Of a stretch of 64,000 nucleotides of DNA, positions 42,167 to 60,600 are shown piece by piece; within the stretch, counting starts at the first letter, position 1; the number at the start of each line of letters is the position of its first letter. The stretch is from Naegleria gruberi (lineage: Eukaryota). The notes under the pieces were generated by a model. That model was not told the DNA's origin, did no database searches, and worked only from the letters and a program-made list of their open reading frames with translations. The position numbers and the translations under genes are program-made. Location of the stretch: assembly GCA_000004985.1 (NCBI GenBank), contig GG738897.1, one strand, 5' to 3'.

Positions 42167-42584
42167 TTCTGAAATCTTTCTCTAACTCAATCACCATTAT
42201 CAGCTTTTTGAATACTGCAAAATCTAGGAGAATTTACAAATCATCTAGCAAGCTACGCTTAACCAATACCAAGGAATAATGATTTCATATTTCAGAATTG
42301 AAAATCATTCTCGAGCAACTTTTGTAATTCATGAATCTCACAAACTAAACACCTCAAAGGCTCTTCTTCAAAAACCAAATTGAACCAATAAATTGAATTA
42401 CAATGACAGTATCCAACTTCAATTTGCAGGATTTTGCTCGATTTTCAAAAACTCACAGCACAAAAACGAATAAATAGCAAGAAGAATCGTGCTTGCGGAG
42501 ATTCATAAATAAATAATAATTTGCCGCAAAAAAACAACACCACAACAATCACCACATCTATTAACTCCGATTGTTTAATTGATA

Positions 42585-45500
42585 ATGAAAATGGAGGAGG
42601 AACAAGATGTTTCCTCCATGTCGCAACAACAATCGAGTGGTGCAAGAATAAGTGAAGAAGAAGTTATTATAGAAGGGGAAGAAGTGATGGTTCCGATGAC
42701 GTCCATGGAAGAAGAAAACAATACTCTTCTAATACCTAATTATGAACATTTCCCTTCCGATGATGATAGTGTGGAGAGGGAAAATTCTCATCGAGACATG
42801 ATAGACAATTTTAAAGATGGAATTGATATATCATCACCTGAAGATTATGAACATTCGAGTGGGATCATTTCAAAGCTTTTCTTTTCCTTCCTTGATCCAC
42901 TGATTAAGGTTGGTTATAAGAAGGGAGGCAGGAATGATAAACCCTTCGCTGGTATTGTTCAATTAATTAGAAAATTATTAATTTATTTGAAAATAAGGAA
43001 GGAAAATCAAGAGATTGAGGATAATTTTGAAGGATTGCAACACTCTGATATTCCCAAATTACCAAAACATATTCAGACCGATAATATTTATCCAATATTT
43101 GAAAAGAGTTTTAAACATGTCTATCTTAAAAAGAGGAGATACTATTCGGAGGCTGGAAATTTATGGAGTAGTAATGGAACTCTGTTAATTAGAGTTATAG
43201 AGAAGGTATTTAGGTGGAGAGGATTTTATTCTATTGCTCTTTGGAGGATTATTTCAATTATTGCGACATATATTGCACCATTAATTTTGTACATTTTGTT
43301 GGAAGCTATTAGAACTCATTCAAGTGAGGATTCTAATATTAATGTTAATAAGAATCAAACGGAACCAATTCAGAATTCAACACTACCTTTATACTTTATG
43401 GGAATTACTTATATGGAAAATTCCTCTTCAATTGTAAATGCCACATTAATTGAGTCATATCTGCCTCTGTCTAATATTTATTTCCAATTCTCATTGCTAT
43501 GCTTCCTCTTTATTTCTAGCTCTTTCTCATTTATATTTCAACAACACTACTTTTTTGGAAGTTGTAAAGTATGGTTGGGAGTTAAAAATTCTCTACAGGC
43601 ATCAATATTTCAAAAATTAACAAGAATAACTCCCTCAGCAAGAAGCAAGTTTGAAAGTGGAGAGTTGACCAATTTATTTTCTACGGATACTAACAGATTA
43701 GCTGGTGTGATTATTGAACTACACGATCTGTGGTTAACACCAATTATGATTATTGTTGGAATGACTCTAATTATTCTCTTCTTTGGATTTAGTGCAGTGG
43801 CTGGTATTTTAGCCATGATTGCTTTTGCTCCAGTTCTAGGAGTGCTTGCTAAACTATTGACAAAAATTGAAACTGAATTGTCCAAACACAAAGACGAAAG
43901 AATTAAGGTTATGAGTGAAATTTTGAACGGTATCAGAATTGTTAAATTCTTTGTTTTTGAAGACAAAATGAAGGAACGTGTCTATGATGCCAGAGCTAAG
44001 GAATATCAAGGTTTAAGAAAAGGAGCTCTCATAAGATGTTTCCAATTACTAACTTCAGCCACCACCTCAGTTGTTGGAAGTGGTGTTACCTTCATTTCTC
44101 ATTACTATATGGGTGGTGAATTAACCATGTCGAATATGTTCACTGGACTAGTACTTTTCGAAACTTTCAGAACTCCTCTTTTCAACTATCCTAATTATCT
44201 TTCAATGGCAGTAACTGCATACGTAAGTGCTAAGAGAATTGGTAATTTCCTCTTTGCTGATGAAATTACCTCACTGCCTCACGATCCAGAAAATAAGTCA
44301 AATCTCTTCAAAGCAGAAGAAAACAAAGACCTAAATGATAGTATCTCAAGTCCGCTAGTTGATTTTGCAATCAAGTTTAAGAATGCAACCATATCATGGG
44401 GTGAGCATTCAAGCCCAATTCTCAAGAATATTAACTTGACTCTCGAAAAAGGAAAACTCTATTGTTTGATTGGTAATACTGGTTCAGGTAAAAGTAGTTT
44501 ATTTTCCTCAATTTATGGTGATACAGTTATTGTCAATGGCTCCGTCTCTGTAAATCCATACTCCAAACTTACACTCAGTGATGAAAATCCTTGGATGATC
44601 AATGGAACTGTAAGAGAAAACATAATATTCGACAAATCTCTTGACTTTGATTCTGAAAAATATGAAAAGGTTTTGGATGTATGTCAGCTTCGTTCTGACT
44701 TGGCAGGTTTCCAAAATTATGACCAATCTGAAATTGGTTACTCTGGCATTAACCTCTCCCTAGGTCAAAAACATAGAATAGGTTTGGCCAGAGCTTGTTA
44801 CTCCAACTCGGATATTATCTTGATGGATTCCTCACTAAATTCAATCGATGCTCGTCTCTGTAAGAAAATATTCAGAGATTGCATTATGGATTACCTTAAG
44901 GATAGAACTAGAATACTCATTACACACTCACTGCAATTGTTGAAAATGGCTGATGAAGTTATTGTCTTGCAGCAAGGTGAGATTGTAGCCAAGGGTCCTC
45001 TCAAAGATATTATGGATTCATATGATTTTTCCAAGTTGATTACTGAAGACGATAACAATGAAAAAAGTGAAGAATCGTCTCCAGAAATTTCTGAAGAAAA
45101 ACCCAAATCAAAGACAACTGAGAAAGGATCTGAATCTAAAGGAAAGCTTGTCCTGAATGAAGAGAGAACCACTGGTAATATTTCATGGGGTATATTCTAT
45201 GATTATTTGAAAGAATATGGCATTTCATTAATCTTGTTGTGCATTTTCCTTTCTTTTGCATCACTTGGTACTAAATTACTGAGTCAGATGTGGATTTCCT
45301 TTATGAATATGAACACATTCCAAATGTCCATTGCCAATTATGTTTGGATTTATCTAGTGATTGGATGTCTTGATTCCCTCATTCTATTTATCAGAAGTGG
45401 TTTCTACTCGTATGGTTCTCTTAAAAGCTCACTCAAACTCCACAACAAAATGTTGGAAGGTGTTTTAAGGGCTCCAATTTTATTCTTCGATCAAAATCCT

Positions 45501-46943
45501 GTTGGACGTATTCTGAACAGATTTACACAAGATATCAATGCCACTGACAATGAAATGTTATTCACCATACCAGTGGCTATTAATATTATTCTAAACATTC
45601 TCCTGACCATCATTCTGATTTCTACAATCACTCCATTATTCCTTGTTGTAATTGTACCTATTGGATTGGTCTTTTATCTCATTCAGATTTATTATAGAGT
45701 TAGCTCGAGAGAAATTAGAAGATTAGAGTCAATTGCAAGAAGTCCAAGTTTATCACACTTCTCATCGTGTCTCCAAGGTATTAACACAATTAAGGCACTA
45801 CTAGTTCATGAACAAATATTCCATGATTGTAATAGAAAGATTGATTTTGCTACCAAACATTCACATTTCCGTTTTGCAATTAACAGATGGTTGGGTATTA
45901 GAATTCAAGTTTTAGCCCAAATTGTGGTTTTCTTTACAGCCTTGTTTGCCATTATTGCAAGACATACTACTACTTATATTGCACCATCTCTTTTAGCTCT
46001 TTCTATTACTTACTCACTTCAGTTGACTGATAATTTTACCTTCCTTATCAGATACTTTGTAGATTTAGAAAGCTCAATGACCAGTGTTGAACGTATTGTT
46101 CACTATTGTAATAATATTGATTCGGAAGCACCAACTGAACAGGAGGATGATCCTAGTCCAGAAGAATGGCCTTCAGAGGGTCGTATTGAAGCTACCAATT
46201 TCTCAGTAAGATACAGATCTGATTTGGATCCTGTATTGAAATCGATTAACTTTACTATTGATCCAGGAACAAAGGTAGGAATTGTTGGAAGAAGTGGCTC
46301 TGGAAAGAGTAGTTTGCTGATATCACTTTTTAGATTCCTTGAAGCAGATAGTGGAAATATCAAAATTGATGGTTATAACATTTCAGATATTGGATTGAAA
46401 AGATTGAGACAATCACTCTTGATTATTCCTCAACAACCAGTACTGTTCACTGGTACTATCAGATATAATTTGGACATTTTTAATGAATTTACAGATAAGG
46501 AAATATGGTCAGCTCTAGAACGTGTTCATTTGAAGAATAAGATTAGATCTATGGAAAAGAAATTGGATGAACCTGTAACAGAAAATGGAGGTAACTTTTC
46601 CATCGGTGAAAGACAACTAGTCTCGCTAGCCAGATGCATATTAAGAAAGGCCAAAATTATTATTTTCGATGAGAGTACTGCCTTTGTGGATCATCAAGCT
46701 GATGCTCTAGTTCAAAAAATTGTAAGAGAAGAATTTAAACATGCCACAATCATCACTGTAGCCCACAGACTTGACACAATTATTGATTCTGATAAAATCA
46801 TTGTCATGGAATTTGGTGAAATATTGGAGGTTGGATCTCCAAAGGAATTATTGAAACAAGAAGACAGTAACTTTTACAAGTTGGTTAAGGAAACTGGTAA
46901 AAATTATTCATCCTTCCTCAAACAACAAGCATTCAAAGAATAA
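42585..46943 (+). CDS. ABC transporter, ABCC/MRP-type full transporter (TMD-NBD-TMD-NBD), ~1452 aa
   Basis: The track ORF starts on TTG; the first ATG is at 42585. NBD1 has Walker A GNTGSGKSS, signature LSLGQKHRIGLARA and Walker B ILMDSSLNSID (catalytic Glu replaced, so a degenerate site as in ABCC proteins). NBD2 has GRSGSGKSSL, FSIGERQLVSLARC and IIIFDESTAFVD, then H-loop VAHRL. Two 6-helix TMDs are present. Confidence 0.85.
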   Translation: MKMEEEQDVSSMSQQQSSGARISEEEVIIEGEEVMVPMTSMEEENNTLLIPNYEHFPSDDDSVERENSHRDMIDNFKDGIDISSPEDYEHSSGIISKLFFSFLDPLIKVGYKKGGRNDKPFAGIVQLIRKLLIYLKIRKENQEIEDNFEGLQHSDIPKLPKHIQTDNIYPIFEKSFKHVYLKKRRYYSEAGNLWSSNGTLLIRVIEKVFRWRGFYSIALWRIISIIATYIAPLILYILLEAIRTHSSEDSNINVNKNQTEPIQNSTLPLYFMGITYMENSSSIVNATLIESYLPLSNIYFQFSLLCFLFISSSFSFIFQQHYFFGSCKVWLGVKNSLQASIFQKLTRITPSARSKFESGELTNLFSTDTNRLAGVIIELHDLWLTPIMIIVGMTLIILFFGFSAVAGILAMIAFAPVLGVLAKLLTKIETELSKHKDERIKVMSEILNGIRIVKFFVFEDKMKERVYDARAKEYQGLRKGALIRCFQLLTSATTSVVGSGVTFISHYYMGGELTMSNMFTGLVLFETFRTPLFNYPNYLSMAVTAYVSAKRIGNFLFADEITSLPHDPENKSNLFKAEENKDLNDSISSPLVDFAIKFKNATISWGEHSSPILKNINLTLEKGKLYCLIGNTGSGKSSLFSSIYGDTVIVNGSVSVNPYSKLTLSDENPWMINGTVRENIIFDKSLDFDSEKYEKVLDVCQLRSDLAGFQNYDQSEIGYSGINLSLGQKHRIGLARACYSNSDIILMDSSLNSIDARLCKKIFRDCIMDYLKDRTRILITHSLQLLKMADEVIVLQQGEIVAKGPLKDIMDSYDFSKLITEDDNNEKSEESSPEISEEKPKSKTTEKGSESKGKLVLNEERTTGNISWGIFYDYLKEYGISLILLCIFLSFASLGTKLLSQMWISFMNMNTFQMSIANYVWIYLVIGCLDSLILFIRSGFYSYGSLKSSLKLHNKMLEGVLRAPILFFDQNPVGRILNRFTQDINATDNEMLFTIPVAINIILNILLTIILISTITPLFLVVIVPIGLVFYLIQIYYRVSSREIRRLESIARSPSLSHFSSCLQGINTIKALLVHEQIFHDCNRKIDFATKHSHFRFAINRWLGIRIQVLAQIVVFFTALFAIIARHTTTYIAPSLLALSITYSLQLTDNFTFLIRYFVDLESSMTSVERIVHYCNNIDSEAPTEQEDDPSPEEWPSEGRIEATNFSVRYRSDLDPVLKSINFTIDPGTKVGIVGRSGSGKSSLLISLFRFLEADSGNIKIDGYNISDIGLKRLRQSLLIIPQQPVLFTGTIRYNLDIFNEFTDKEIWSALERVHLKNKIRSMEKKLDEPVTENGGNFSIGERQLVSLARCILRKAKIIIFDESTAFVDHQADALVQKIVREEFKHATIITVAHRLDTIIDSDKIIVMEFGEILEVGSPKELLKQEDSNFYKLVKETGKNYSSFLKQQAFKE

Positions 46944-47030: not shown

Positions 47031-49974
47031 CTAATGATAAATGTTTTTCTTAACATTCTTCTTCCTCTTCTTTTGGATCTTTCCAACTGAACCAGAACTA
47101 TAGGAGTCATCTGCCAATGTAGGACTGTTATCAGATGGGAAAGACCAAGGGGAAGGTGGACTGACACCCAAAAGAATATTTCCTGGAGAAGTCAAGTAGG
47201 AAACTTCTTCCTTTCCGTCAATATCGTTCATAGAGGAAAGTGAATTAGGCTTTCTAATCTTCTTTCTGCCCAATGAGGTAGGAACTGGAGGAGCTGAGTT
47301 TGGTGTTGGTGGAGGAGCAAGCTTTTTAGCGGATTGCTTTTGCTTATTCTTGTGTTTCTTCTTTTGCTTATTATTATAGGAAGAACTGGCAAAGTGAGAA
47401 TGGTAATAAGTGGAAAATGGAAGAGCATATTCTGATTGTTCATAAAATCCTGATCCTTCTTGTTGTCTGAAAAGTTTTCTGAGATCCTTCAGCTCTTGTT
47501 TAAGATCTGAGGAGAGATCCTTTTTGTAATTGTTGGTTTTTCTTACCTTTGACATGTTGTGAACTATAAAATAAGTGCATGTTTCCCTCAAATGCTTCAC
47601 ATCATATGAATCAGCAATGCTAAATATGGTGGAGGCATTTCCTGGGTGAATCTTCTTTTCAATAACACTTTGACACATTAGAGATAATCTTTCAAGTTGA
47701 TAGACTTCTGCAGCAACAAGAAGTTCTACTGAAATATCAAAGTTGATGGACACATTTCCACTATACAAATATTGAAGTACTAACTTGAAAACCTGAGGTC
47801 TAATGCCAGTAAGTTCAAATTCATCAATTTTGGTCATACCAATTGAATGTTGTTGTTGTGGTTTGTTGGAAAGCATCCTACGGAAGAATTTGGATCTAGA
47901 ATTGAGAATACATCTATGACAGGCAATCCTTTCTTTTTCAGCACCAACACTAAACAAAACGTCGCAATTAGATTGATCAGAATTAATAAAAGTAGTAGTA
48001 CTAAGAACAGTACTGAAAATATTACCACCATCTTGAGTTGAGACTGACATTGGAGAAGTGATTGAATAATTATCATCCTCATCTGATGAGTCATCATTCT
48101 CACTTTGAGATGCAGAGACATATTGACTAAAGTCAAAATGGGCCTTTGAGCTACTCGGAGGAGAATCGAGGCGATCTTGATCTTCATTCTTCTCCAATAA
48201 GAGGCTCTTTTCTGTAGATTCATAAAGTTTCTTCATGTCCGTATAGAGGGTTGGAGCAGGGATAGATGTGGTAAAATCTGAATCTAAATGTTTTGAGCAT
48301 AGAGCAAATAGTCTATCCAGTGAAAATGCAACTGCTAAGAAAATTAGCTCATAAATGCAACATCTTATATCTACATCAACTGGAATATCCTCTCCATCCA
48401 ACAAACCGACTCGGTCTGTATATAAATATTCAAGTAATCCTCTGAATCCGTAGCTCTTTACCTTTTCTGATTTTTGTTTTAATTCTTCATATTTCTCTGT
48501 TGCCTTGTGCTTTTTCTTTTTCATTAGAGCGTCTGCAGCATCACCTACGTTAACAATATCGTTAGATGATAGCCTCATACATTCTCTATATAAAAGAGGA
48601 GCACGGGCATATATTATTGGTCTGTGTGCATGGTAGAATTGGCCATTATATTCTAGAATAGTATCTGAATAATCTTCCGAGTCAATTAGAGAACTTAAAT
48701 CACTAGTTAGTGTGGATCTTCCACAATCAATTGGCTCAATCCCTCTTATTCCTGTTTCTAAAGTGTAGACATTATTGGATATTTGGGTACTGGAATCATT
48801 TTCTGCAAATTTTCCACCAATTATCCAAAGCTTGGTTCCAGCCATTTGAGCTGAATGACCAACAAGAGATGGTGGGGCAGGGGAGTTCTTATCTACATAG
48901 GGTTTTTCAATATCCCATCTAAAGTGTTCCAAATCTAAAACCATCAAATCATTAGAATGGGAGTGAGCATTAACCAAACCACCAAATACAATCATCTTGT
49001 TGGCAATAATATTGGCAGTGTGGTGGACTCTCTTCGCAGAGTCAGTTGTACCTTCAATTTTGATATGCTTCCAAGTGAGAGTATCAAGATCAAGACTGTA
49101 CAAATCATTGAACAAGTGTTGATCATTACCACCTCCGAAAATGTAAAGAGAATTATTGTAGTGGACACAAGTGTGACCATATCTTGGAGAAGGTTTAACA
49201 CCCTGAGTCTTTTCTCTAACCCAAGTGTTTGATTCCGTATCAATCACCATGAGATCATTGAAATAGTTAGTACCATCAGTACCACCGAATATATACATCT
49301 TGGTTCCATCAATAACATTGGTAGTGTGGCTGTTTGTCAATATTAATCAAGATAGCAGCACCAAGCATTCAAAGGAAAAATCGTTACGAAGGAAATGTGA
49401 AAAAGTAACCAATCAAAGGGTTAATTGTTGTTGTGTGAATAAATTGTTATTGTTGTAAACAAGTTTGTACTTACCCGTAGAGTGCAGGAAGAATATCTTG
49501 AGCAGAGTGTCTGGCTGAACACTTGACTTTCAACCACTCCATACTTTCGATATCGAATCTGTAGAGTGAGTTGCTTGCAGTACCTTTTTCTAATTGTCCA
49601 CCATAGATATACAGAGTACATTTAGAGACTTGGGTCATGGTATGTTGGGAAAGTTTTGGTAGTTTTGCATTAGGGAATAGTTCATAGTCGTTTCTGTTGA
49701 GTTTCTCTGGTTTAATAGTACGAATACCTGTTGGTTTGATTGCCTTCTTCCTTCTGAGAATTTTAATAACATCATTCAAGCAGTGATACTCTCCAGATTC
49801 CAAGTTGTACACTACAAAGGAGTTGCTAAAGTGTTGTCCTTCAGCTTTATCAGCCCCTCCATAGATGTACATGTATTGTTTGTTGATAATTACAGAGGAG
49901 TGAAAATACCTCTGCAATTGATTGTCATTGCAGCTTTTCCAAAAAGAACCTAATAATCTAGCAATCCATATCAT
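47031..49974 (-). CDS. LZTR1-like protein: six Kelch repeats followed by two BTB domains (~932 aa), 2 exons: 49475..49974 and 47031..49329, intron 49330..49474
   Basis: Kelch blades are marked by YMYIYGG, LYIYGG, MYIFGG, LYIFGGG, MIVFGG and LWIIGG. BTB1 is DTILEYNGQFYHAHRPIIYARAPLL; BTB2 is CDVLFSVGAEKERIACHRCILNSRSKFFRRML. A 145-nt intron gtaagtac...aaacag (phase 2) joins ...ILPALYG|HTTNVIDGTKMYIFGG. The C-terminus is basic and P-rich. Confidence 0.75.
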
Positions 49975-50834: not shown

Positions 50835-51668
50835 ATGAAGAGAAAGGGAGTCATGACTATTGGTGATTTGCTGAAAGCCAAACACAATGATCAAAAGCCA
50901 GAGCTGTCAATCCAAGAACCAAACAAGAAGAAACAAAAGATTATTGGCCGAACTCTTGGATCATTGACAGAAGAATCAAAACTTGTAACAATTCAACCAA
51001 GCAACAGCAAAGACAAAACACAACATCAATATAAAACTGAAATGCTTATCAATGATGAAAATGGAGCCCAAGTTTCATTCATTTCGAATTTTGTCTCGAA
51101 ACCAGACTCGAAAGTACTCTTCAACAAGATTCTCTCCACTTGCACTTGGAAAACCAAAACTTATAATTATGGAGGGAAGGACGTGATATCACCTCGAGAA
51201 TTTTGTGGCATTTCTTCTCAGAGTGAATGGAGCAAAATACCAGAGCTTATCTCTCTCAAGGAACGAATTGAAAAGTTCACAAATCACACCTTCACTTATT
51301 GTTTCATTAACAAGTACAAGGATGGAAATGATTCAATATATTGGCATTCAGATAAAGAGAAGGGACTCAAGAAGGGATGTCCAATCGTATCGATTTCTCT
51401 TGGTAGGTAAATCAATTATTGGCTTACTTGACATTACTTGAATTATTCATTTTCAACAATAGGCCAAGAAAGGGATTTTCAATTTAGACCAAAAATATCT
51501 AAGAATTCCAAGCAACAGAAGGATGGAAACATCATTGAAAAGAACCTTCCCGATGGTTCAATGGTTGTTATGAATTATGAAACTCAAGAATACTATGAAC
51601 ACTCCTTACCAAAAAGAAGAAATATTCACAACATTCGTCTGAATCTCACATTTCGAAATTACGTATAA
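50835..51668 (+). CDS. ALKBH2/3-like Fe(II)/2-oxoglutarate-dependent dioxygenase (AlkB family), 257 aa, 2 exons: 50835..51402 and 51463..51668
   Basis: NKYKDGNDSIYWHSDKE carries the HxD iron ligands. The junction gives ...PIVSISL-G-QERDFQFRPK, matching ALKBH2 PIASVSFGACRDFVFRHK. Exon 2 has the second His (EYYEHSLP) and the 2OG-binding RLNLTFR. The 60-nt intron gtaggtaaatc...caacaatag is in phase 1. Confidence 0.75.
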
Positions 51669-52171: not shown

Positions 52172-55010
52172 ATGACTAGGGTACATCCAATGGTTCCTCA
52201 GGGTTCTGATAAAGAGGTAACTGAATTACGCCACTCTTTCGACACACCAATTTCTAATGTGAGGAATATTCCACTTAGAGTGCTTCACGACTCGATGGAA
52301 GTTAAGGAAAACAGCAACAACCTACAACCACACACTTCGTTTCTTCACGAGGATTACACATCTCAACATGATTTTCAATCAGGATCAAATTTGAATGTAT
52401 CTGGTAGGAATGGAGGCAAATTGAGTGGAGTAAAGAAGAAATATTCAATGAAACATCACTCTACTCATGAAACGAGTCATCTTAATATATCGATCAAAAC
52501 ATGTCTGATTGCATTGATTGCCTTTCTTGAAATTTTAACAGTCCTAACCTTGTCTAGTATATGGATTTCGTGTTTCCTTCCCTCCATGCTCAAGTGGGGG
52601 TCTTCAGTAAGAGAAAAGAGTTTTGATAACATTATACAATTCACAAGGTCCACATTGAAGGAACTGGCTCTGGTGACAGAAACAGAGAGGGAGCTGTTAT
52701 CAGATAACTTTGACCCTTACAATACACAGCTTGTTGAAAAACACATGTTCAGACTATTCAAAAATGAGCTAGTGAGACATCCATCTCTACCTGTAACCTT
52801 GTATTTAGGTGACCACACACGATACAATTACGGTGTTATGCAAATGGATGAAAATACTTTGGCAGCTTTTAACATGGATTCATACTACTATTGTCAAGAT
52901 TACCTGAATAATGATTTGTGCGTTAGAAACAACACACCTGATGAGGTATTGGGTGAGTTTGATATGACACCAATTTTGGAGGCTGCAAGTCAAGCACCTG
53001 GCGGGTCACGATTCACATTGAGTTATGCTGACATTTCATTGCCTAGTATCACATTCATCACATTACTATCAATGGTGAAAAATTCTACAAATCCTTCTGA
53101 TTTTATCTTTTGGATTGGCTACGATGTCTCTGTTCAGTCTTTTTCAATATATCTGAACTCTATCACAAAGGATACTCCTGGAGCAATTGCCTTTACTATA
53201 GAAGTTATGACTGATTATCTTATATCGAGTAAGTCTCATCATTGAATTTTAACTGTTTCTGTAACTATTAAATAGATTACAATCCAGATGTATCTGTAGC
53301 ATCTTGGGATGAAAATGAAGAGGAAACAAGAGTGACAGCTCGTACAGTAACTGATAATGGAACCAATCTCATTGCTGAACATGTTTACAAACTGTATCCA
53401 AATTTAACCGATATAACTTGTAATGAGAAAATATTGATGGAAGTAGATGGATACTATATTTCCATGTATCGATTATGTACTAATGAGAACATTGATTGGC
53501 TTATTGTTTTTGCTGAACCAACAATGAATTTTATGGAAGCAATCATTGTTGCTGTAAGCGCTGCTCTAGGTTCAAGTCTAGTTATCATTATTATTAGTAT
53601 TGGTATCGGAGTTTACATTGCCTTCAAGATTATTCAGCCATTCTATGATTTGATATTTAACTTTAGTGAGGTTTCAGAAATGAAACTTGAAGGACTTTCT
53701 TTTGAGACGAGCGTTTTCAGAGAAGTTCAAATTCTTCAGGGACATTTTAAGGGGATGGTTGAAAAAATCAAACTCTATCGTTGGTAAGTTGGACGAGGTT
53801 TCACAATCAAATTCTAATTTTCATGTTAGCTTTATTCCAAGCCATTTAATTTCAAAGATTGATGGAGAAGGAGAGGATACAGAAAAGAGCAGAAAATCAA
53901 AAGAATCACAAAGTAAGAATAGCCTTTCTTTCGAGAAAAAGATTGAAACTTCAGACAGTTTTACAAGTATCGTCAGTATAAAGAAACCTCAGGTAGATAC
54001 AATGGCAAGGTTTGCTCTTCATTTGGAGAGTAGAAGAGTTACCTTTGCATGTCTTCACATAGAGGGAATGGGTCGCTGTATCACAACAAGCTCCTACACA
54101 GAAATAGTCAGCATTTTGAGTGAAATATTCAAGTATGTGTACGATATTAGTAAATTGAGTGGAGGTTCTGTTGGAAACTTTGAAAGCGAAACTGTATTGA
54201 TTTCATTCAATTCCAATGCAGAGACGTCTGCAGCAGAGAAGAAGGCAGTAGTGTTTGCATCACAAACAGTTAAAAAGCTAAATGGGTTGAGTACCCTTAA
54301 GAAATCAATCAGTGGAAGGTCGTCGGAAAAGCCAATTGTTTTCAGAGCATCTGTCCTGTCTCAATATTGTTGTTGCGGTAACTTGGGAACGAATGAATTT
54401 AAGAATTTCACGATTGTGGGAAGTTTCAAACAAAACTTGATCATGATGATTGAGCTGGCCCTTCGATTGAATATTGAACTTGTTGTAACAGAAGATATTC
54501 GTACCAAGACTAATATTGTCTTCCAACACCGATACGTAGATACATTACAATTCTTAACTGAGACGCAGTATGGACTTCCTGAGCTAGATATATCAATATT
54601 CAAAAATTGGGTTTTCTCTCAAGCTGTTGAATATGGCAACTTGAATGTTTCGATGGAAACAGCCAACAATTCCTTCCTTAAACAAAACACTGATGTCAAC
54701 ATTTACGAATATGGAGAATTTATGGAGATAAAAGATGATGGTAAGTTCAATAGATTCTCAATCAAGTTATTTATTTGGCAACATTAAAGAATGGATGTAC
54801 GAATTGGAGGAAAAGAAGAAGAGAAATGAATGGCAGCCATACATTAATGCAACAAGTTTGTATTGGGAAAGGAAGTGTGATGAAGCAATTGCAATTCTGA
54901 ATGAGTTCTTGGATAAATCAATAGAGAATGGAAAGGCTGACTTGCCAACCATTAATTTACTGGAAAAGATTAAGAGACAAATTGATAAGGAACAAGAAAG
55001 CACACAATAA
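52172..55010 (+). CDS. receptor-type protein: N-terminal cytoplasmic segment, TM, extracellular Cache-like sensor domain, TM, class III nucleotidyl-cyclase homology domain (probably catalytically degenerate); 4 exons: 52172..53228, 53276..53783, 53830..54740, 54790..55010 (last intron/terminal exon less certain)
   Basis: TM1 is CLIALIAFLEILTVLTLSSIWISCFL. About 330 aa of extracellular sequence end in the Cache-typical ...YYISMYRLCTNENIDWLIVFAEP. TM2 is AIIVAVSAALGSSLVIIIISIGIGVYIAF. The intracellular part has a cyclase-homology fold signature: RRVTFACLHIEGMGRCITTSSYTEIVSILSEIF..YDIS.LSGGSVGNFESETVLISFN ... KPIVFRASVLSQYCCCGNLG...FTIVGSFKQNLIMMIELA. Introns: 53229..53275 (gtaagt...aaatag, phase 1), 53784..53829 (gtaagt...catgttag, phase 2), and 54741..54789 (49 nt, gtaagttcaatag...attaaag, phase 1) linking to the 55010 stop. 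Without the last intron the ORF ends at 54787. Confidence 0.55.
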
Positions 55011-55776: not shown

Positions 55777-57564
55777 ATGAAACAGATGAAGAGATCCATT
55801 GTACAATTAGCCAAGGCTCAAACTAAGTCTACCACTGCTGCTGCCTTCTCCAACACCTTTGTTAATCAACAACGTACCAAGAAGGTTGATGTTAAGGTCA
55901 AGAAACTTTTCATTGGTGGTGAATTTGTTGAAGGAAAGGAAGGAAAGAAATTCTCTGTATACAATCCAGCAACTGAAGAAGAAATTTGTCAAATTTCCGA
56001 AGCCACTGCTGCTGATGTTGATGATGCAGTTCGTGTTGCTAGAAATACCTTTGAAAACGTCTGGAGAAATTATGCACCATCCCAACGTGTTCGTCTCATG
56101 AATAAGTGGGCTGATTTGATTGAAAGAGATGCTGATTATATTGCTGATTTAGAATGTATTGATAATGGTAAGCCACGTGATATGGTCAGAAATGTTGACA
56201 TTTACTTGGTTCTCCAATGTATTAGATACTATGCTGGTTGGGCTGATAAGATTAACGGTAAGACCATTCCAGTTGACTCTGACTTCTTTGCCTACACTCA
56301 AAGAGAACCAGTTGGTGTTTGTGGTCAAATTGTTCCATGGAATTTCCCATTGGTTTGTTTCTTTTTAATTATTTTCTAATTATTTTAATTTTTTAATTTA
56401 ATTTTTTTTTTAAATATTTTAATATTTTAATTAAATTTATCAAGTTGATGGCTGTAAGTAGAATAGTAAAGAATTATGAAATAATTAACACAAATTCTAT
56501 AGACTTGGAAGTGGGCACCATGTTTGGCAACTGGTAACGTTTCCATTTTGAAGACTGCTGAACAAACTCCATTGTCTGCATTGTACGTTGCTAAATTGGC
56601 TCATGAAGCTGGATTCCCACCAGGAGTCATTCAAGTTTTGAGTGGTTTTGGTGAAACTGTTGGTAATGCATTGACTCATCACATGGATGTTGATAAGATT
56701 TCATTCACTGGTAGCACTGAAGTTGGTAAAAAGATTCTTGGAGCTTCTTCCAAGACTAATTTGAAGAGAGTTACTCTTGAACTCGGTGGTAAATCAGCAT
56801 TGATTGTCATGGGTGATGTTAAGGATCGTGCCACTCTTGAAAAGGCTGTCAATATTGCCAATCAAGGTACCTTCTTCAATCAAGGTCAAGTTTGTACTTG
56901 TTCATCTCGTGTCTTTGTTGCCTCCAATATTTATGAAGATTTCTTGAAGATTTCTAAGGAACTTGCTGAAAAGAGAGTTGTTGGTAACCCATTCGATTCC
57001 AAGACTGAACAAGGTGCTCAAGTCAGTGAAGAACAATTCAACAAGATTATGAGCTACATTGAATATGGTAAGAATAATACTAGACTTGTCACTGGTGGTG
57101 AACGTGCCCATGCCAAGGGTTACTTTGTTAAGCCAACTGTCTTTGCTGATGTTGAAGATACTCATAAGATTGCTCAAGAAGAAATCTTTGGACCAGTTAT
57201 GAGTGTTTTGAAGTTTGATCATGATAATGTTGAAGATGCTATCAGAAGAGCCAACAAGTCTGAATATGGTTTGGCTGCTGGTGTCATTACTCATGATCTC
57301 AACCAAGCTCACAGAGTTGTAAGTTTATTATTTTTAAATTTTTTCTAATTTTCACTAATTATCATTCATTTACAGACATCGGGTCTTAGAGCCGGAACTA
57401 TTTGGGTAAACACATGGAATGCTTTCTTCAGTAATATTGAATTCGGTGGTTACAAGATGTCTGGTCAAGGTAGAGATTTGGGTGAACATGCTTTGGATGA
57501 ATATACTGAAAATAAGTCTGTCATTACTCATATCCCAGGTTTGAAACGTCCATACAAGTTTTAA
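55777..57564 (+). CDS. aldehyde dehydrogenase (NAD+), ALDH1/2 (mitochondrial-type) family, 529 aa, 4 exons: 55777..56352, 56445..56453 (9-nt microexon), 56503..57318, 57376..57564
   Basis: N-terminal presequence-like MKQMKRSIVQLAKAQTK. Motifs KLFIGGEFVEGKEG, VGVCGQIVPWNFPL|LMA|TWKWAPCLATGNVSILKTAEQTPLSAL, FTGSTEVGKKI, ELGGKSALIV, catalytic Cys region NQGQVCTCSSRVFV, EEIFGPVMSVLKF, then ...AHRV|TSGLRAGTIWVNTW and GYKMSGQGRDLG. Intron 1 is 56353..56444 (gtttgt...tcaag), intron 2 is 56454..56502 (gtaagtag...tctatag), and intron 3 is 57319..57375 (gtaagttt...tttacag). All are in phase 0. Confidence 0.85.
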
Positions 57565-57694: not shown

Positions 57695-60600
57695 ATGCGA
57701 ACACAAATACTCTGTATTTTTATTATTAATGCCATTCTCCTTGCCATCACAACACAAACAACTGTCCATTCACAAAATCCTCCTGAAAATCCTTCATGTA
57801 CTTCACAATTTCTTGTGAATAATGAAATTTCAAAAGCTATGGAATATTTACAGTTCAATATGTTCATGATGATGACTTCGGAATTTGATGATCATCAACA
57901 GGATTTTTCATCGTCACAAGCGAGAAATGTGAAGAATTGCAGTTTGGCAAATCCGTGTGAAAATTTAACACAAATTCTCTCAGTACTGAACAAGACACTT
58001 GTGGAAGATAATTTTAACTTTTATAATCGGTCAACTGAGAGGCTGGTAGTTTTGAATATTAATTTATTGAATGATATTTTGGATACAACTGAACATTTTA
58101 TTGAAACTCCAATAATTTCTGGTTTGAATTATATTTTCAAATTTAAGAGCGTATCAGATTCGGATAGAAATTTGATTCAATTGAAATGGAAGGGATCTTA
58201 TGATCGATCCTATGTATTGACAAGACCAGATATTAAGTGGTTTTACTTTGAGAATGTGACACTTAATTTATTTAGATTGAATAATACGGATGTTGCAAAT
58301 CTTGGTTTTTGTAATTGCTTAATTGTGGATACGTGGTTGAATTTTGTAACGAATAGAGATTTTTATATTGAAAAGAGTCAATTGATTAGATCAATTATTT
58401 ATGCAACTACAAATTTGTGGTTCTATGACAGATCAGAAACCATTAAATATGGAGAATATTATGTGACAGGTTTGACAGCTATTTATAATAATAGTGAAAT
58501 TCATGAAACACGACTCAGATGGACAGTCAGCAGTGTTACAAATCTAATAATTGAAAATTCATTATTTGAAGATTTTTTGGTGGAAATGACCTTCAAACAA
58601 GTGACAAATGTTCTCATTCGAAACTCCACCTTTATTCGTGATTATTTGGATTATAAGGAAGAGTCAGTGAATGCACTTCAAGGAAATTCATTTCGTGTTA
58701 TTAATTGCACCTTTCAACATGCTTATTCATTCCTTTTTGTGAGATCTTATATTTTTGTTTCAATTGATAGCTCAATTGTTTCTAATAATCAGCTGATGAA
58801 GGAGAATTTAATTAGTGTTTTCTATGGGATTATTGCAATTCAGAGTTGTATCACTGTTATGGTTTCCAATTCTCAATTTTCAAACAATGAAGGTTATGAA
58901 AGAGCTTCTGCACTTTACTTGTCAGATGTCAATGTATTCCATGTGAGAAATTGCCAGTTCACTAACAATTCTGCCTCCAGCATCTTCTCAAATAGTTATC
59001 CTAATAGAATGTTTGATAATGATAAGTCTTATTACTGGTATACTGTTTCCAATTGCAAATTCGAAGGAAATACCTGTAACAAGGAAGGTTGTGGAATTTA
59101 CATTTCTGACTCAATTGACCTGACAATTCAAAACAATATTTTCCTGAATAACACAGCTCAATATGGTGGAGCAGCTCTCTTTATCAAAATTGGAGCCAGA
59201 GCTGTAATTTTAAATAATTTATTTATTGGAAATAAGGTACTTTACAATAATTTATTACGACAACCTGCTAGTACTTTCTATTATGGAGGCGGAGGAGCTG
59301 TTTCTATAATTACTACTCAATTGGGACTTTCAGAAAGCAAACTATTGGCAAATACTTTCATTAATAACGAAGCTCTCTATGGTGGTTCATTATTTTTTGT
59401 TAGGGAATCTTTGGTGGAAATTTCCAATTCAACATTTATTGGAAATAAGGCAAAGAGAGGAGGAGCCATGTTTTACTATTCACCAAGTGTAGAACAAACT
59501 GAAATATTTGATAATGTGTTTAAGGAAAATGTTGCAGAAATTGGAAATGATTTATTGACAAGTGTCGTTGCTTTGGATTGGGATAATAGTACTGTACATC
59601 ATGTCAAACCGGGTGATGCTATTTCATTGGATGTAAAGACATTCGAATTGGGTGGATTACTTATTCCAACAAATACTGAAAATTTCACAGTCTTTACTGA
59701 TAACCCAAGTGTTTATTTGGATTTTTTACAGAACGAAACCTCATTTACAATATCCATGTATTTAATGGGTGATGTTACACCAAATTCCTATGGAAATTTC
59801 ACACTATTCCTTGATAGCAATCCAGCAATTACCTTTTTTCATTATTCCATCAATTCATGTGGGGAAGGAAATGAATTGAGAGTAATTGGTAAGAATCAGA
59901 TGGCCGTTTTGAAATGTGTGCCATCTCCTGCTAGCCTACTACCTCTAATTCTATCAGTTTCCATTCCAGTTGGTGTTTTTATTGCCATAGTGAGTGTTTT
60001 TATTGGAATAATTTTGGGCATGGTTGGAATTCCAAAAATTAATAATATAAAACGACGATTGAATCTATTGCAGGAAAAGGAGAGTGCCGAGCAGAGTGTT
60101 GAGCAGAAGATTATTGATAAGAAGGTGGTATTCAATATGAACGATGAAGGTGACTTTAAGGAGCCATTACTGAAAAACTATGAACTGGAAGATCCAATAT
60201 TTCGTTTTATCATTTCTCCAAAGGATATTGACATTGTAAAGAAGGTAGCAGAAGGAGGGTATGTAGTTGTGTGTTTATTGTAACAATTCACTAACAATTT
60301 GATAAGAAATGGAGTGGTTTACAAGGGAACGTGGAAAGGAATTGAAGTTGCCATTAAGACTATTAAGGCAAAGAATGAAAGTAGAGACGATTTTGAGAAT
60401 GAAATTTCACTTCTCGCCTCTATTAGAAATCCACATATTTTGAATTTTTATGGAGTTTGTGTGACGGAGAATGAAACATTTATGATTACAGAGTTTTTGG
60501 AGAATGGAAGTTTGGAGGGGATTATTTATTTGAGTAGGATTGGTCAATTCAAACTCTCATTCCATGAAAAATTGAGAATTTTATATGAAGTAGCTATTGG

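What the first reader, a model, noticed from the sequence alone, without database searches (positions are those of the whole stretch)
52172..55010. Cache-like sensor fused to a class-III cyclase-homology domain that looks catalytically dead
Topology is cytoplasmic N-tail, TM, ~330 aa extracellular domain ending in the Cache-typical ...YYISMYRL...WLIVFAEP, TM, then a cyclase-homology domain. In that domain the canonical metal-binding Asp positions (FxDIxGFT and ...GDxYM) read FACLHIEGMG and TVLISFN. Both aspartates therefore appear substituted. A ligand-binding sensor coupled to a pseudo-cyclase could act as a regulatory or dimerisation partner of a true cyclase, or signal non-enzymatically. 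A dCache-cyclase arrangement is bacterial-like and, as far as I know, not described for dictyostelids, whose receptor cyclase ACG uses a CHASE domain. The 3' end is ambiguous: either the stop is at 54787, or a 49-nt intron (54741..54789) adds a conserved-looking 72-aa tail ending at 55010.
Basis: partly seen in the sequence, partly recalled or inferred. Interest (0 to 1): 0.75.

Follow-up and report, generated by a model that had tools for sequence, protein, structure and literature searches.

The report
Sensor receptor with dead cyclase domain
This gene from a Naegleria-like amoeba encodes a membrane receptor with a bacterial-style outside sensor and an inside domain that has the shape of a cAMP/cGMP-making enzyme but lacks its key catalytic residues; it belongs to a large family apparently not described as such, so some of the many "cyclases" counted in these amoebae probably do not make cyclic nucleotides.

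Summary
Window 52172-55010 (+) is one four-exon gene with three GTAAGT..AG introns of 47, 46 and 49 nt, encoding 898 aa. The order is N-tail, TM1, double-Cache ectodomain, TM2, HAMP, YRxFIPxHL element, low-complexity linker, cyclase-homology domain (CHD), and a DEWMYEL plus TPR-like tail.

The N. gruberi ortholog NAEGRDRAFT_61756 (63% identity) is collinear and has introns at the same three sites. That settles the disputed 3' intron.

Metal Asp1 is His598 and Asp2 is Glu642. The substrate Lys is Asn638, and the NxxxR arginine is Met in either alignment register.

This degeneracy is family-wide. Among the 150 best relatives, 2 of 127 keep Asp1 and none has NxxxR. All named members are Heterolobosea (Naegleria, Willaertia, Percolomonas, Pharyngomonas). 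A canonical Naegleria receptor cyclase aligns over almost the full length (hhalign E 2.5e-37), so this is a derived pseudo-cyclase lineage. It is under purifying selection (CHD dN/dS about 0.12, dS saturated).

The dictyostelid attribution is wrong. Cache-HAMP-cyclase receptors are already described in Discoba. How the protein signals is inferred, not shown.

The parts
52172..55010 (+). Whole gene. Four exons: 52172-53228, 53276-53783, 53830-54740, 54790-55010 (stop at 55008-55010). Introns: 53229-53275, 53784-53829, 54741-54789. Product 898 aa.
   Evidence: In-frame assembly with GTAAGT..AG introns. Collinear with N. gruberi P0160 across all three junctions. The N. gruberi-type contig L001 has introns of 44/47/43 nt at the same positions.
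52172..52495 (+). Cytoplasmic N-terminal tail, aa 1-108. Poorly conserved.
   Evidence: 33% identity to the ortholog, with many gaps. A Lys/His-rich stretch precedes TM1. Cytoplasmic location is inferred from the positive-inside rule.
52496..52579 (+). TM1, aa ~109-136.
   Evidence: Kyte-Doolittle hydropathy peak of 2.36. 86% identical to the ortholog.
52580..53535 (+). Double-Cache (dCache) extracellular sensor, aa 137-439, interrupted by intron 1.
53536..53622 (+). TM2, aa ~440-468.
   Evidence: Hydropathy peak of 2.72.
53623..53775 (+). HAMP domain, aa ~469-519, with conserved Pro474 and Glu502.
   Evidence: hhalign of the family profile places this stretch on the Pfam-annotated HAMP (residues 267-318) of the canonical cyclase P0168. 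The HAMP Pro, the DEI Glu and the F..M motif all line up. The Pfam HAMP model itself does not hit.
53776..53854 (+). YRxFIPxHL element, aa 520-530, spanning intron 2. It corresponds to KYIPKEIV / KYVDPRIV of canonical HAMP cyclases.
   Evidence: F, P and H are nearly invariant in 28 diverse members. The match to the canonical motif is by eye in P0167/P0168 and by hhalign.
53864..54004 (+). Ser/Lys/Glu-rich low-complexity linker, aa 534-580. It is inserted relative to canonical cyclases.
   Evidence: It is a gap in the canonical P0167 and P0168 in hhalign. 52% identity to the ortholog.
54005..54739 (+). Degenerate class III cyclase-homology domain, aa 581-825.
- Asp1 position: His598 (54056-54058).
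- Asp2 position: Glu642 (54188-54190).
- Substrate Lys position: Asn638.
- NxxxR Arg position: Met727/Met728 (54443-54448).
- Variable loop insert: aa 776-810 (54590-54694).
54790..55007 (+). DEWMYEL motif plus a three-helix TPR-like tail, aa 826-898. The Glu826 codon starts at 54740.
   Evidence: E-W is present in 96-109 of ~113 family members. The model shows three helices with high pLDDT. Weak TPR Pfam hits occur in paralogs. The tail aligns to the C-terminal tails of canonical P0167 and P0168.

Best explanation
The locus encodes a two-pass receptor of a Naegleria-like heterolobosean. It is the ortholog of N. gruberi NAEGRDRAFT_61756.

Shown here:
- An extracellular double-Cache sensor, then a HAMP domain, then a conserved YRxFIPxHL element.
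- A disordered Ser/Lys/Glu-rich linker.
- A domain with the class III cyclase fold that has lost Asp1 (His598), the substrate Lys (Asn638) and the NxxxR arginine (Met). Asp2 is Glu642.
- A conserved DEWMYEL plus TPR-like helical tail.
- Membership in a large heterolobosean family that is homologous end to end with canonical Naegleria dCache-HAMP-cyclases, is degenerate family-wide, and evolves under purifying selection.

Inferred, not shown:
- The protein does not synthesise cAMP or cGMP.
- A ligand bound by the dCache dimer acts through HAMP on a CHD dimer that is kept as a conformational or dimerisation scaffold.
- The output is non-enzymatic: partner binding to the CHD and its DEWMYEL/TPR tail, or modulation of true cyclases.
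For: - Gene model and orthology.
- HAMP: aligned onto the Pfam-defined HAMP of P0168.
- Catalytic positions were mapped four ways, and all agree on Asp1 and Asp2: phmmer to 1wc1 and 3r5g; family profile to 3r5g, 2w01 and 1wc1; hhalign to canonical P0168 and P0167; and canonical cyclases P0169, P0170, P0172, P0174 and P0177 aligned to the family HMM, which place their own Asp at that column.
- Family-wide degeneracy: Asp1 in 2 of 127; intact NxxxR in 0, in either register; the Arg column is L/M/I/V in 117 of 124.
- Descent from canonical receptor cyclases: hhalign to N. lovaniensis P0167 has probability 99.9, E 2.5e-37 and 553 columns covering ectodomain, TM2, HAMP, CHD and tail.
- Constraint: CHD dN 0.26 against saturated dS, dN/dS about 0.12, similar to the sensor at 0.095.
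- Established knowledge: both metal Asp and the Asn/Arg pair are needed for two-metal-ion catalysis in class III cyclases. The role of NxxxR is also discussed in PMC12264004.
Against: - No biochemistry exists, so 'dead' rests on sequence alone.
- Glu642 keeps a carboxylate and His598 can bind metals. Both are conserved between the window and N. gruberi, so a non-canonical metal site in this orthologous pair is not excluded.
- The structure models are of the N. gruberi ortholog (63% identical overall, 67% in the ectodomain), not of the window protein. They are monomers, and no coordinates were available to inspect the pocket or how the tail packs.
- No partner protein, ligand or expression data are known.
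- A disordered linker between HAMP and CHD makes the usual rigid signal transmission hard to picture.
Confidence: 0.6

Rival explanations
1. It is a regulatory heterodimer partner. The dead CHD pairs with the CHD of a canonical Naegleria receptor cyclase of the P0167 type and tunes or silences it. This would add a second ligand input.
For: - The CGNxG segment is invariant, with G 127/127, N 117/126 and G 123/125. That this segment lies in the dimerisation-arm region is assigned from memory, not tested here.
- The pseudo-cyclase family and the canonical receptors are homologous along their whole length, so mixed dimers are conceivable.
- Heterodimeric class III cyclases with one degenerate site are well known: tmAC, sGC and NeoR/RGC1 (PMC12264004).
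Against: - Known degenerate partners still supply one complete half-site. NeoR, for example, supplies both metal Asp. This protein lacks Asp1 as well as Lys and the NxxxR Arg, so both sites of a mixed dimer would be defective. Only inhibition or allostery is possible.
- No complementary 'C1-like' members occur among the close relatives. Only the distant P0135 keeps both Asp.
- There is no co-expression or interaction evidence.
Confidence: 0.22
2. It is a nucleotide-binding pseudo-cyclase. The degenerate pocket still binds ATP or GTP (or another small molecule) as an intracellular co-signal, without turning it over.
For: - Glu642 and Thr716 are retained, and an Asn (Asn724) sits at or one residue after the canonical Asn position, depending on register.
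- The non-catalytic site of NeoR/RGC1 is proposed to bind GTP as an allosteric site.
Against: - The pocket positions are highly variable across the family. The Asp1 position is K, R, H, Y, N, L or F. The Lys position is S, N, H or T. That argues against a common ligand.
- No binding data exist.
Confidence: 0.1
3. It is an active cyclase with non-canonical chemistry, in which His598 and Glu642 form the metal site.
For: His598 and Glu642 are both conserved in the N. gruberi ortholog. Glu is a conservative replacement for Asp.
Against: - The Asp1 position is not conserved in the family.
- The transition-state Arg is missing in either alignment register, and the canonical Asn position is Gln723 in the gap-free register (Asn724 only if a one-residue insertion is allowed). 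The substrate Lys is missing, and the strand carrying the gamma-phosphate Lys (VKGK) is replaced by FLTE plus a loop insert.
- From established knowledge, mutating either Asp abolishes activity in characterised class III cyclases.
Confidence: 0.06
4. It is a decaying pseudogene, or three independent ORFs.
For: A bacterial-style ORF listing shows three or four separate ORFs. Pfam finds nothing.
Against: - Exact in-frame splicing at canonical sites.
- Intron positions conserved in N. gruberi.
- Full-length collinearity with more than 20 homologs.
- dN/dS of about 0.1 in every folded domain.
Confidence: 0.02

Closest known systems
Canonical Naegleria dCache-HAMP-class III receptor cyclases, e.g. 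N. lovaniensis C9374_014075 (P0167). This is the Cache1-TM-HAMP-NCIII subfamily described for Euglena, kinetoplastids and N. gruberi in PMC6366073.
   Same: Same topology and domain order: TM1, dCache, TM2, HAMP, (Y/F)IP element, CHD, TPR-like tail. Homologous over 553 aligned columns (hhalign E 2.5e-37).
   Different: - P0167 has FSDIKNFT, DKYIGD, VNLASRLE and VKGK, the full catalytic set, and hits Pfam Guanylate_cyc at 1.9e-23.
- The window protein has His, Asn/Glu, Met and no Lys.
- It has a ~50-aa low-complexity insert before the CHD and a loop insert inside it.
- It has a DEWMYEL motif.
- It lacks the terminal P.ESW(N/D)GV..TEK ending.
Pseudomonas aeruginosa CyaB (PDB 3r5g) and other bacterial class III cyclases (Cya2 2w01, CyaC 1wc1).
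   Different: These are active enzymes with both Asp, Lys and NxxxR. Their sensor modules differ.
Degenerate subunits of heterodimeric class III cyclases: mammalian tmAC C1/C2, sGC alpha/beta, and chytrid NeoR/RGC1 (PMC12264004).
   Same: A CHD that cannot catalyse on its own. The NxxxR motif is lost, as in NeoR.
   Different: Those subunits keep one complete complementary half-site, so the dimer has one active site. This protein lacks residues from both halves.
Class III adenylyl cyclase-like ATP-binding protein of P. aeruginosa (PDB 6yii).
   Different: It is a soluble bacterial transcription-regulator architecture, with no Cache, HAMP or TM segments and only distant similarity. Its properties are taken from the PDB title only.
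Bacterial dCache chemoreceptor and histidine-kinase sensors (PctD 7prq, PscC 6mni, McpU 6f9g, Tlp3 4xmq).
   Same: Same double-PDC fold between two TM helices, followed by HAMP.
   Different: Only 8-16% identity. Pfam dCache_1 does not hit, and the close-subfamily profile finds no PDB sequence. The ligand is unknown. The output module is a dead CHD rather than an MCP or kinase module.

Membership tests
Class III nucleotidyl cyclase (catalytically competent CHD) | [quoted passage not shown] | tested here: met
Class III nucleotidyl cyclase (catalytically competent CHD) | Two metal-binding aspartates (F.DI.GFT and GD) | tested here: not met
   Asp1 is His598 and Asp2 is Glu642. Canonical cyclases aligned to the same HMM show Asp at both columns.
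Class III nucleotidyl cyclase (catalytically competent CHD) | Transition-state Asn...Arg (NxxxR) motif | tested here: not met
   With a one-residue gap the motif reads Asn724...Met728. Without a gap it reads Gln723...Met727. There is no Arg in either register, and none of ~122 family members has NxxxR.
Class III nucleotidyl cyclase (catalytically competent CHD) | Substrate-specifying Lys/Glu four residues before Asp2, and Asp/Thr/Cys before the conserved Gly | tested here: not met
   The Lys/Glu position is Asn638. In the family it is S, N, H or T. Thr716 is present.
Class III nucleotidyl cyclase (catalytically competent CHD) | cNMP synthesis | not testable with these tools
   This needs an enzyme assay.
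dCache (double Cache / double PDC) extracytoplasmic sensor | Long N-terminal helix plus two stacked PAS-like modules, located between two TM helices | tested here: met
dCache (double Cache / double PDC) extracytoplasmic sensor | Match to the Pfam dCache_1 or MCP-like_PDC_1 models | tested here: not met
   No hit for the window protein at E<=10 or for ten close paralogs at E<=1. Only distant family members hit: MCP-like_PDC_1 in 2 and dCache_1 in 1. The wider family profile does hit dCache structures, e.g. 4xmq at 5e-7.
dCache (double Cache / double PDC) extracytoplasmic sensor | Defined ligand-binding motif (e.g. the amino-acid motif of dCache_1AA) | not tested
   No residue-level structural alignment or coordinates were available. 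By eye, the region before the conserved SY.D motif lacks an RPWY-like sequence, but that is a recollection, not a test.
HAMP domain | About 50 aa directly after TM2, two helices, with a conserved Pro in the first helix and Glu at the start of the second | tested here: met
   hhalign aligns aa ~469-519 to the Pfam HAMP of P0168 (residues 267-318), with Pro on Pro, Glu on the DEI Glu, and F..M on FNHM. Pro and Glu are nearly invariant in the family. The Pfam HAMP HMM itself gives no hit.
Heterolobosean DEWMYEL pseudo-cyclase receptor family (unnamed; UniRef auto-name 'Guanylate cyclase domain-containing protein') | Degenerate CHD with invariant CGNxG, followed by DEWMYEL and a TPR-like tail | tested here: met
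   The window has CGNLG and DDEWMYEL. It is 63% identical overall to N. gruberi P0160. Profile hits reach E 1e-166.
   All named relatives are Heterolobosea. The sensor is dCache, not CHASE.

The most novel reading that the evidence does not exclude
A whole heterolobosean clade of ligand-gated membrane receptors has converted the class III cyclase domain into a non-enzymatic signalling module. At least ~125 sequence-cluster representatives are involved, and at least 8 paralogs in N. gruberi alone among the 30 looked up. The module would read out through a lineage-specific DEWMYEL/TPR tail. If so, this is a cyclic-nucleotide-independent transmembrane pathway, and a substantial share of the ~80-100 'cyclases' counted in Naegleria genomes are pseudoenzymes.
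Probability: 0.35. Interest if true: 0.65.

Novelty: new variant of a known kind. Interest (0 to 1): 0.5.

Why it matters
Naegleria genomes are often cited for an unusually large cyclase repertoire. The pangenome paper PMC9928731 gives 'at least 81 cyclases'. This is taken as evidence for rich cyclic-nucleotide sensing.

This gene shows that one sizeable, conserved branch of that repertoire keeps the bacterial-type sensor and HAMP but has lost catalysis. At least one such member (N. gruberi XP_002673367.1, P0015) is nonetheless annotated 'adenylate/guanylate cyclase'.

Two things follow. Counts and functional inferences for these amoebae, including the pathogen N. fowleri, need a residue-level census. 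The family is also a tractable case for asking what a receptor-linked pseudo-cyclase does. It offers many paralogs with different sensors (dCache, NIT, solute-binding-protein-like) on one conserved dead output module.

Tried and rejected
- Pfam on the full protein gave no family, even at E<=10.
- The word-index homology search found one relative for the single sequence and 12 for a profile, mostly true cyclases. It missed the 63%-identical N. gruberi ortholog. That ortholog came from the exhaustive profile search plus the cluster listing.
The profile search therefore used P0001 plus trimmed window exon pieces (A4, checked with hmmbuild). The structures are of the ortholog P0160, with window exon pieces as alignment rows.
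- A first fragment alignment was misaligned and discarded.
- The ectodomain profile of the close subfamily found no PDB sequence.
- The afdb50 fold library was not available.
- Exact look-ups of P0001 and of the window's exon-1 ORF found no contig.
- Taxon check with the neighbouring aldehyde dehydrogenase was uninformative, because the protein is too conserved.
- Synteny check of the 954 nt upstream in L001 against the window gave no match.
- The N. gruberi genome paper (Cell 2010) is not held. Literature searches for pseudo-cyclases, for Naegleria cyclases and for the 6yii protein found no description of this family.
Full report
**Gene model.** The window is AT-rich (about 33% G+C) eukaryotic DNA with short introns. 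Joining 52172-53228, 53276-53783, 53830-54740 and 54790-55010 removes three GTAAGT..AG introns of 47, 46 and 49 nt. The result is one open frame of 898 codons.

The model is confirmed from outside the window. The N. gruberi predicted protein P0001 (718 aa, 34-37% identical) is collinear from the ectodomain to the C-terminal tail. The N. gruberi protein NAEGRDRAFT_61756 / XP_002682800.1 (P0160, 864 aa) reads straight across all three junctions..YLIS|NY....LYR|CFIPSHL....KED|EWMYEL... A metagenomic contig (L001) is 98-100% identical to P0160 at protein level over each exon. It has introns of 44, 47 and 43 nt at exactly the same three positions.

The 'three separate ORFs' alternative is excluded.

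**Source organism.** The named relatives are Naegleria gruberi, N. fowleri, N. lovaniensis, Willaertia magna, Percolomonas cosmopolitus and Pharyngomonas kirbyi, all Heterolobosea. The remaining hits are unnamed metagenome contigs.

The window protein is 63% identical overall to its N. gruberi ortholog, and synonymous sites are saturated. No identical protein is on record. The source is therefore a Naegleria-like heterolobosean other than the annotated species, and not a dictyostelid. An attempt to confirm this with the neighbouring aldehyde dehydrogenase was uninformative.

**Topology and ectodomain.** Hydropathy gives two TM segments, at aa ~109-136 and ~440-468. The ~303 residues between them carry four Cys that are invariant against P0001 and four N-glycosylation sequons. 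That fits an extracellular location.

Pfam finds nothing in this protein or in ten close paralogs. A profile of the close subfamily's ectodomain finds no PDB sequence either.

'Cache-like' is thus confirmed and can be sharpened to a divergent dCache. The ligand is unknown.

**HAMP and linker.** hhalign of a 28-member family profile against P0168 gives probability 98.9 and E 2e-17 over 341 columns. P0168 is a metagenomic protein with Pfam HAMP at 267-318 and Guanylate_cyc at 352-532. The alignment places window aa ~469-519 on that HAMP, with the HAMP Pro, the DEI Glu and the F..M motif all matching.

A nearly invariant YRxFIPxHL element follows. It corresponds to KYIPKEIV and KYVDPRIV of the canonical cyclases P0167 and P0168. 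In those proteins the element abuts the CHD. Here a ~50-residue Ser/Lys/Glu-rich, poorly conserved insert intervenes. How a HAMP signal would cross it is unexplained.

**Catalytic residues.** Four independent alignments agree that Asp1 is His598 (LHIEG) and Asp2 is Glu642 (FESET).
- The substrate-specifying Lys/Glu position is Asn638.
- Thr716 occupies the Asp/Thr position.
- The NxxxR motif reads N724-LIM-M728 if a one-residue insertion is allowed, and Q723-NLI-M727 if not. Arg is absent either way.
- The strand that carries the gamma-phosphate Lys (VKGK in P0167) reads FLTE and is followed by a 35-residue low-confidence loop insert.

So this domain lacks residues from both halves of a class III active site.

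**The degeneracy is family-wide.** An exhaustive profile search of 1.84 billion cluster representatives gave 1613 hits at E<=1e-3, 328 at <=1e-10 and 77 at <=1e-30. Among the best 150:
- Asp1 is present in 2 of 127, both distant members: P0132, and Pharyngomonas P0135. Otherwise the position is K, R, H, Y, N, L or F.
- Asp2 is D in 43 and E in 13 of 128.
- The Arg column is L/M/I/V in 117 of 124.
- No member has NxxxR in either register.
- CGNxG is essentially invariant.
- The E-W of DEWMYEL is present in 96-109 of ~113.

Canonical cyclases run through the same HMM show D, GD and VNLASR at those columns, which validates the register. Other family members carry NIT, solute-binding-protein-like or Pfam-detectable PDC/dCache ectodomains on the same cytoplasmic module.

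**Origin.** The N. lovaniensis protein P0167 has the full catalytic set and a strong Pfam cyclase hit. It aligns to the family profile with probability 99.9 and E 2.5e-37 over 553 columns, covering ectodomain, TM2, HAMP, CHD and the TPR-like tail. The bacterial-type P0168 also shares the tail.

The family is therefore a derived branch of the Cache-HAMP-cyclase receptors already described in Discoba (PMC6366073). Four changes mark it: loss of catalytic residues, the linker insert, gain of DEWMYEL, and loss of the terminal P.ESW(N/D)GV..TEK ending.

**Selection.** Against the N. gruberi-type locus, dN/dS is 0.095 for the ectodomain, 0.10 for HAMP, 0.12 for the CHD, 0.06 for the DEWMYEL region and 0.19 for the tail. 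dS is saturated (1.2-2.7), so these ratios are rough. Even so, the dead CHD is clearly as constrained as the sensor. The gene is not decaying.

**Mechanism.**
- Shown: the architecture, the loss of catalytic residues, the family, the descent from canonical receptors and the constraint.
- Inferred: the protein does not make cNMP and works as a ligand-regulated dimeric receptor. Its CHD would serve as a scaffold or conformational switch. Output would go through the conserved tail or through modulation of true cyclases.

**Novelty and limits.** The architecture is known for this lineage, and UniRef auto-names relatives 'Guanylate cyclase domain-containing protein'. One degenerate N. gruberi member is even annotated 'adenylate/guanylate cyclase'.

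I found no paper describing this pseudo-cyclase family. The searchable library is incomplete, however, and the N. gruberi genome paper was not available.

I rate the finding a new variant of a known kind, of moderate interest. The limits are these:
- The structures are monomer models of the ortholog, not the window protein.
- No coordinates were available to inspect the pocket or the tail packing.
- No expression, ligand, partner or enzymatic data exist.

Noticed in passing
window 57695-60283 (+): An 862-aa single ORF with a right-handed beta-helix / NosD-like domain (Pfam Beta_helix 6.8e-15, NosD 1.1e-6). It looks bacterial and sits in a eukaryotic window, so it may be a horizontal acquisition.
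   Followed up: no
window 55777-56379 and 56524-57348 (+): An aldehyde dehydrogenase split over two ORFs, presumably by a short intron or introns. The best database relatives are only 54-59% identical, and one unnamed fragment is 76% identical.
   Followed up: partly
window 47031-49340 and 49471-49974 (-): A Kelch-repeat plus BTB protein in two ORFs on the minus strand.
   Followed up: no
window 50835-51668 (+): An AlkB-like 2OG-Fe(II) oxygenase directly upstream of the receptor gene. It continues in other frames after 51410, which suggests introns.
   Followed up: no
window 42579-46943 (+): A full-size ABC transporter with two ABC_membrane and two ABC_tran domains, as one 1454-aa ORF.
   Followed up: no
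window 53864-54004 (aa 534-580): A Ser/Lys/Glu-rich low-complexity insert lies between the near-invariant YRxFIPxHL element and the CHD. It is absent from the canonical relatives P0167 and P0168. It would break the usual rigid HAMP-to-CHD coupling and might be a phosphorylation region.
   Followed up: partly
P0135 (Pharyngomonas kirbyi transcript, 1279 aa): This distant family member keeps both metal Asp (VDIENF, SGD) but lacks the NxxxR Arg. It may be an intermediate or 'C1-like' state in the decay of the family.
   Followed up: partly
P0015 = N. gruberi XP_002673367.1: It is annotated 'adenylate/guanylate cyclase', although Leu sits at the Asp1 position and it has no NxxxR. Published Naegleria cyclase counts may therefore include pseudo-cyclases.
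   Followed up: partly
L001 (ENA ERZ929261, contig k127_163602, 3622 nt): This environmental metagenome contig is 98-100% identical at protein level, exon by exon, to N. gruberi NAEGRDRAFT_61756. A prokaryotic gene caller had split it into four 'genes', one per exon.
   Followed up: yes
P0072, P0076 (JGI metagenome contigs of 23-29 kb): These ~1160-aa family members are named 'ankyrin repeat protein/class 3 adenylate cyclase'. They have variant tails (AWVNE / AWAND in place of EWMYE), and their source organism is unknown.
   Followed up: no
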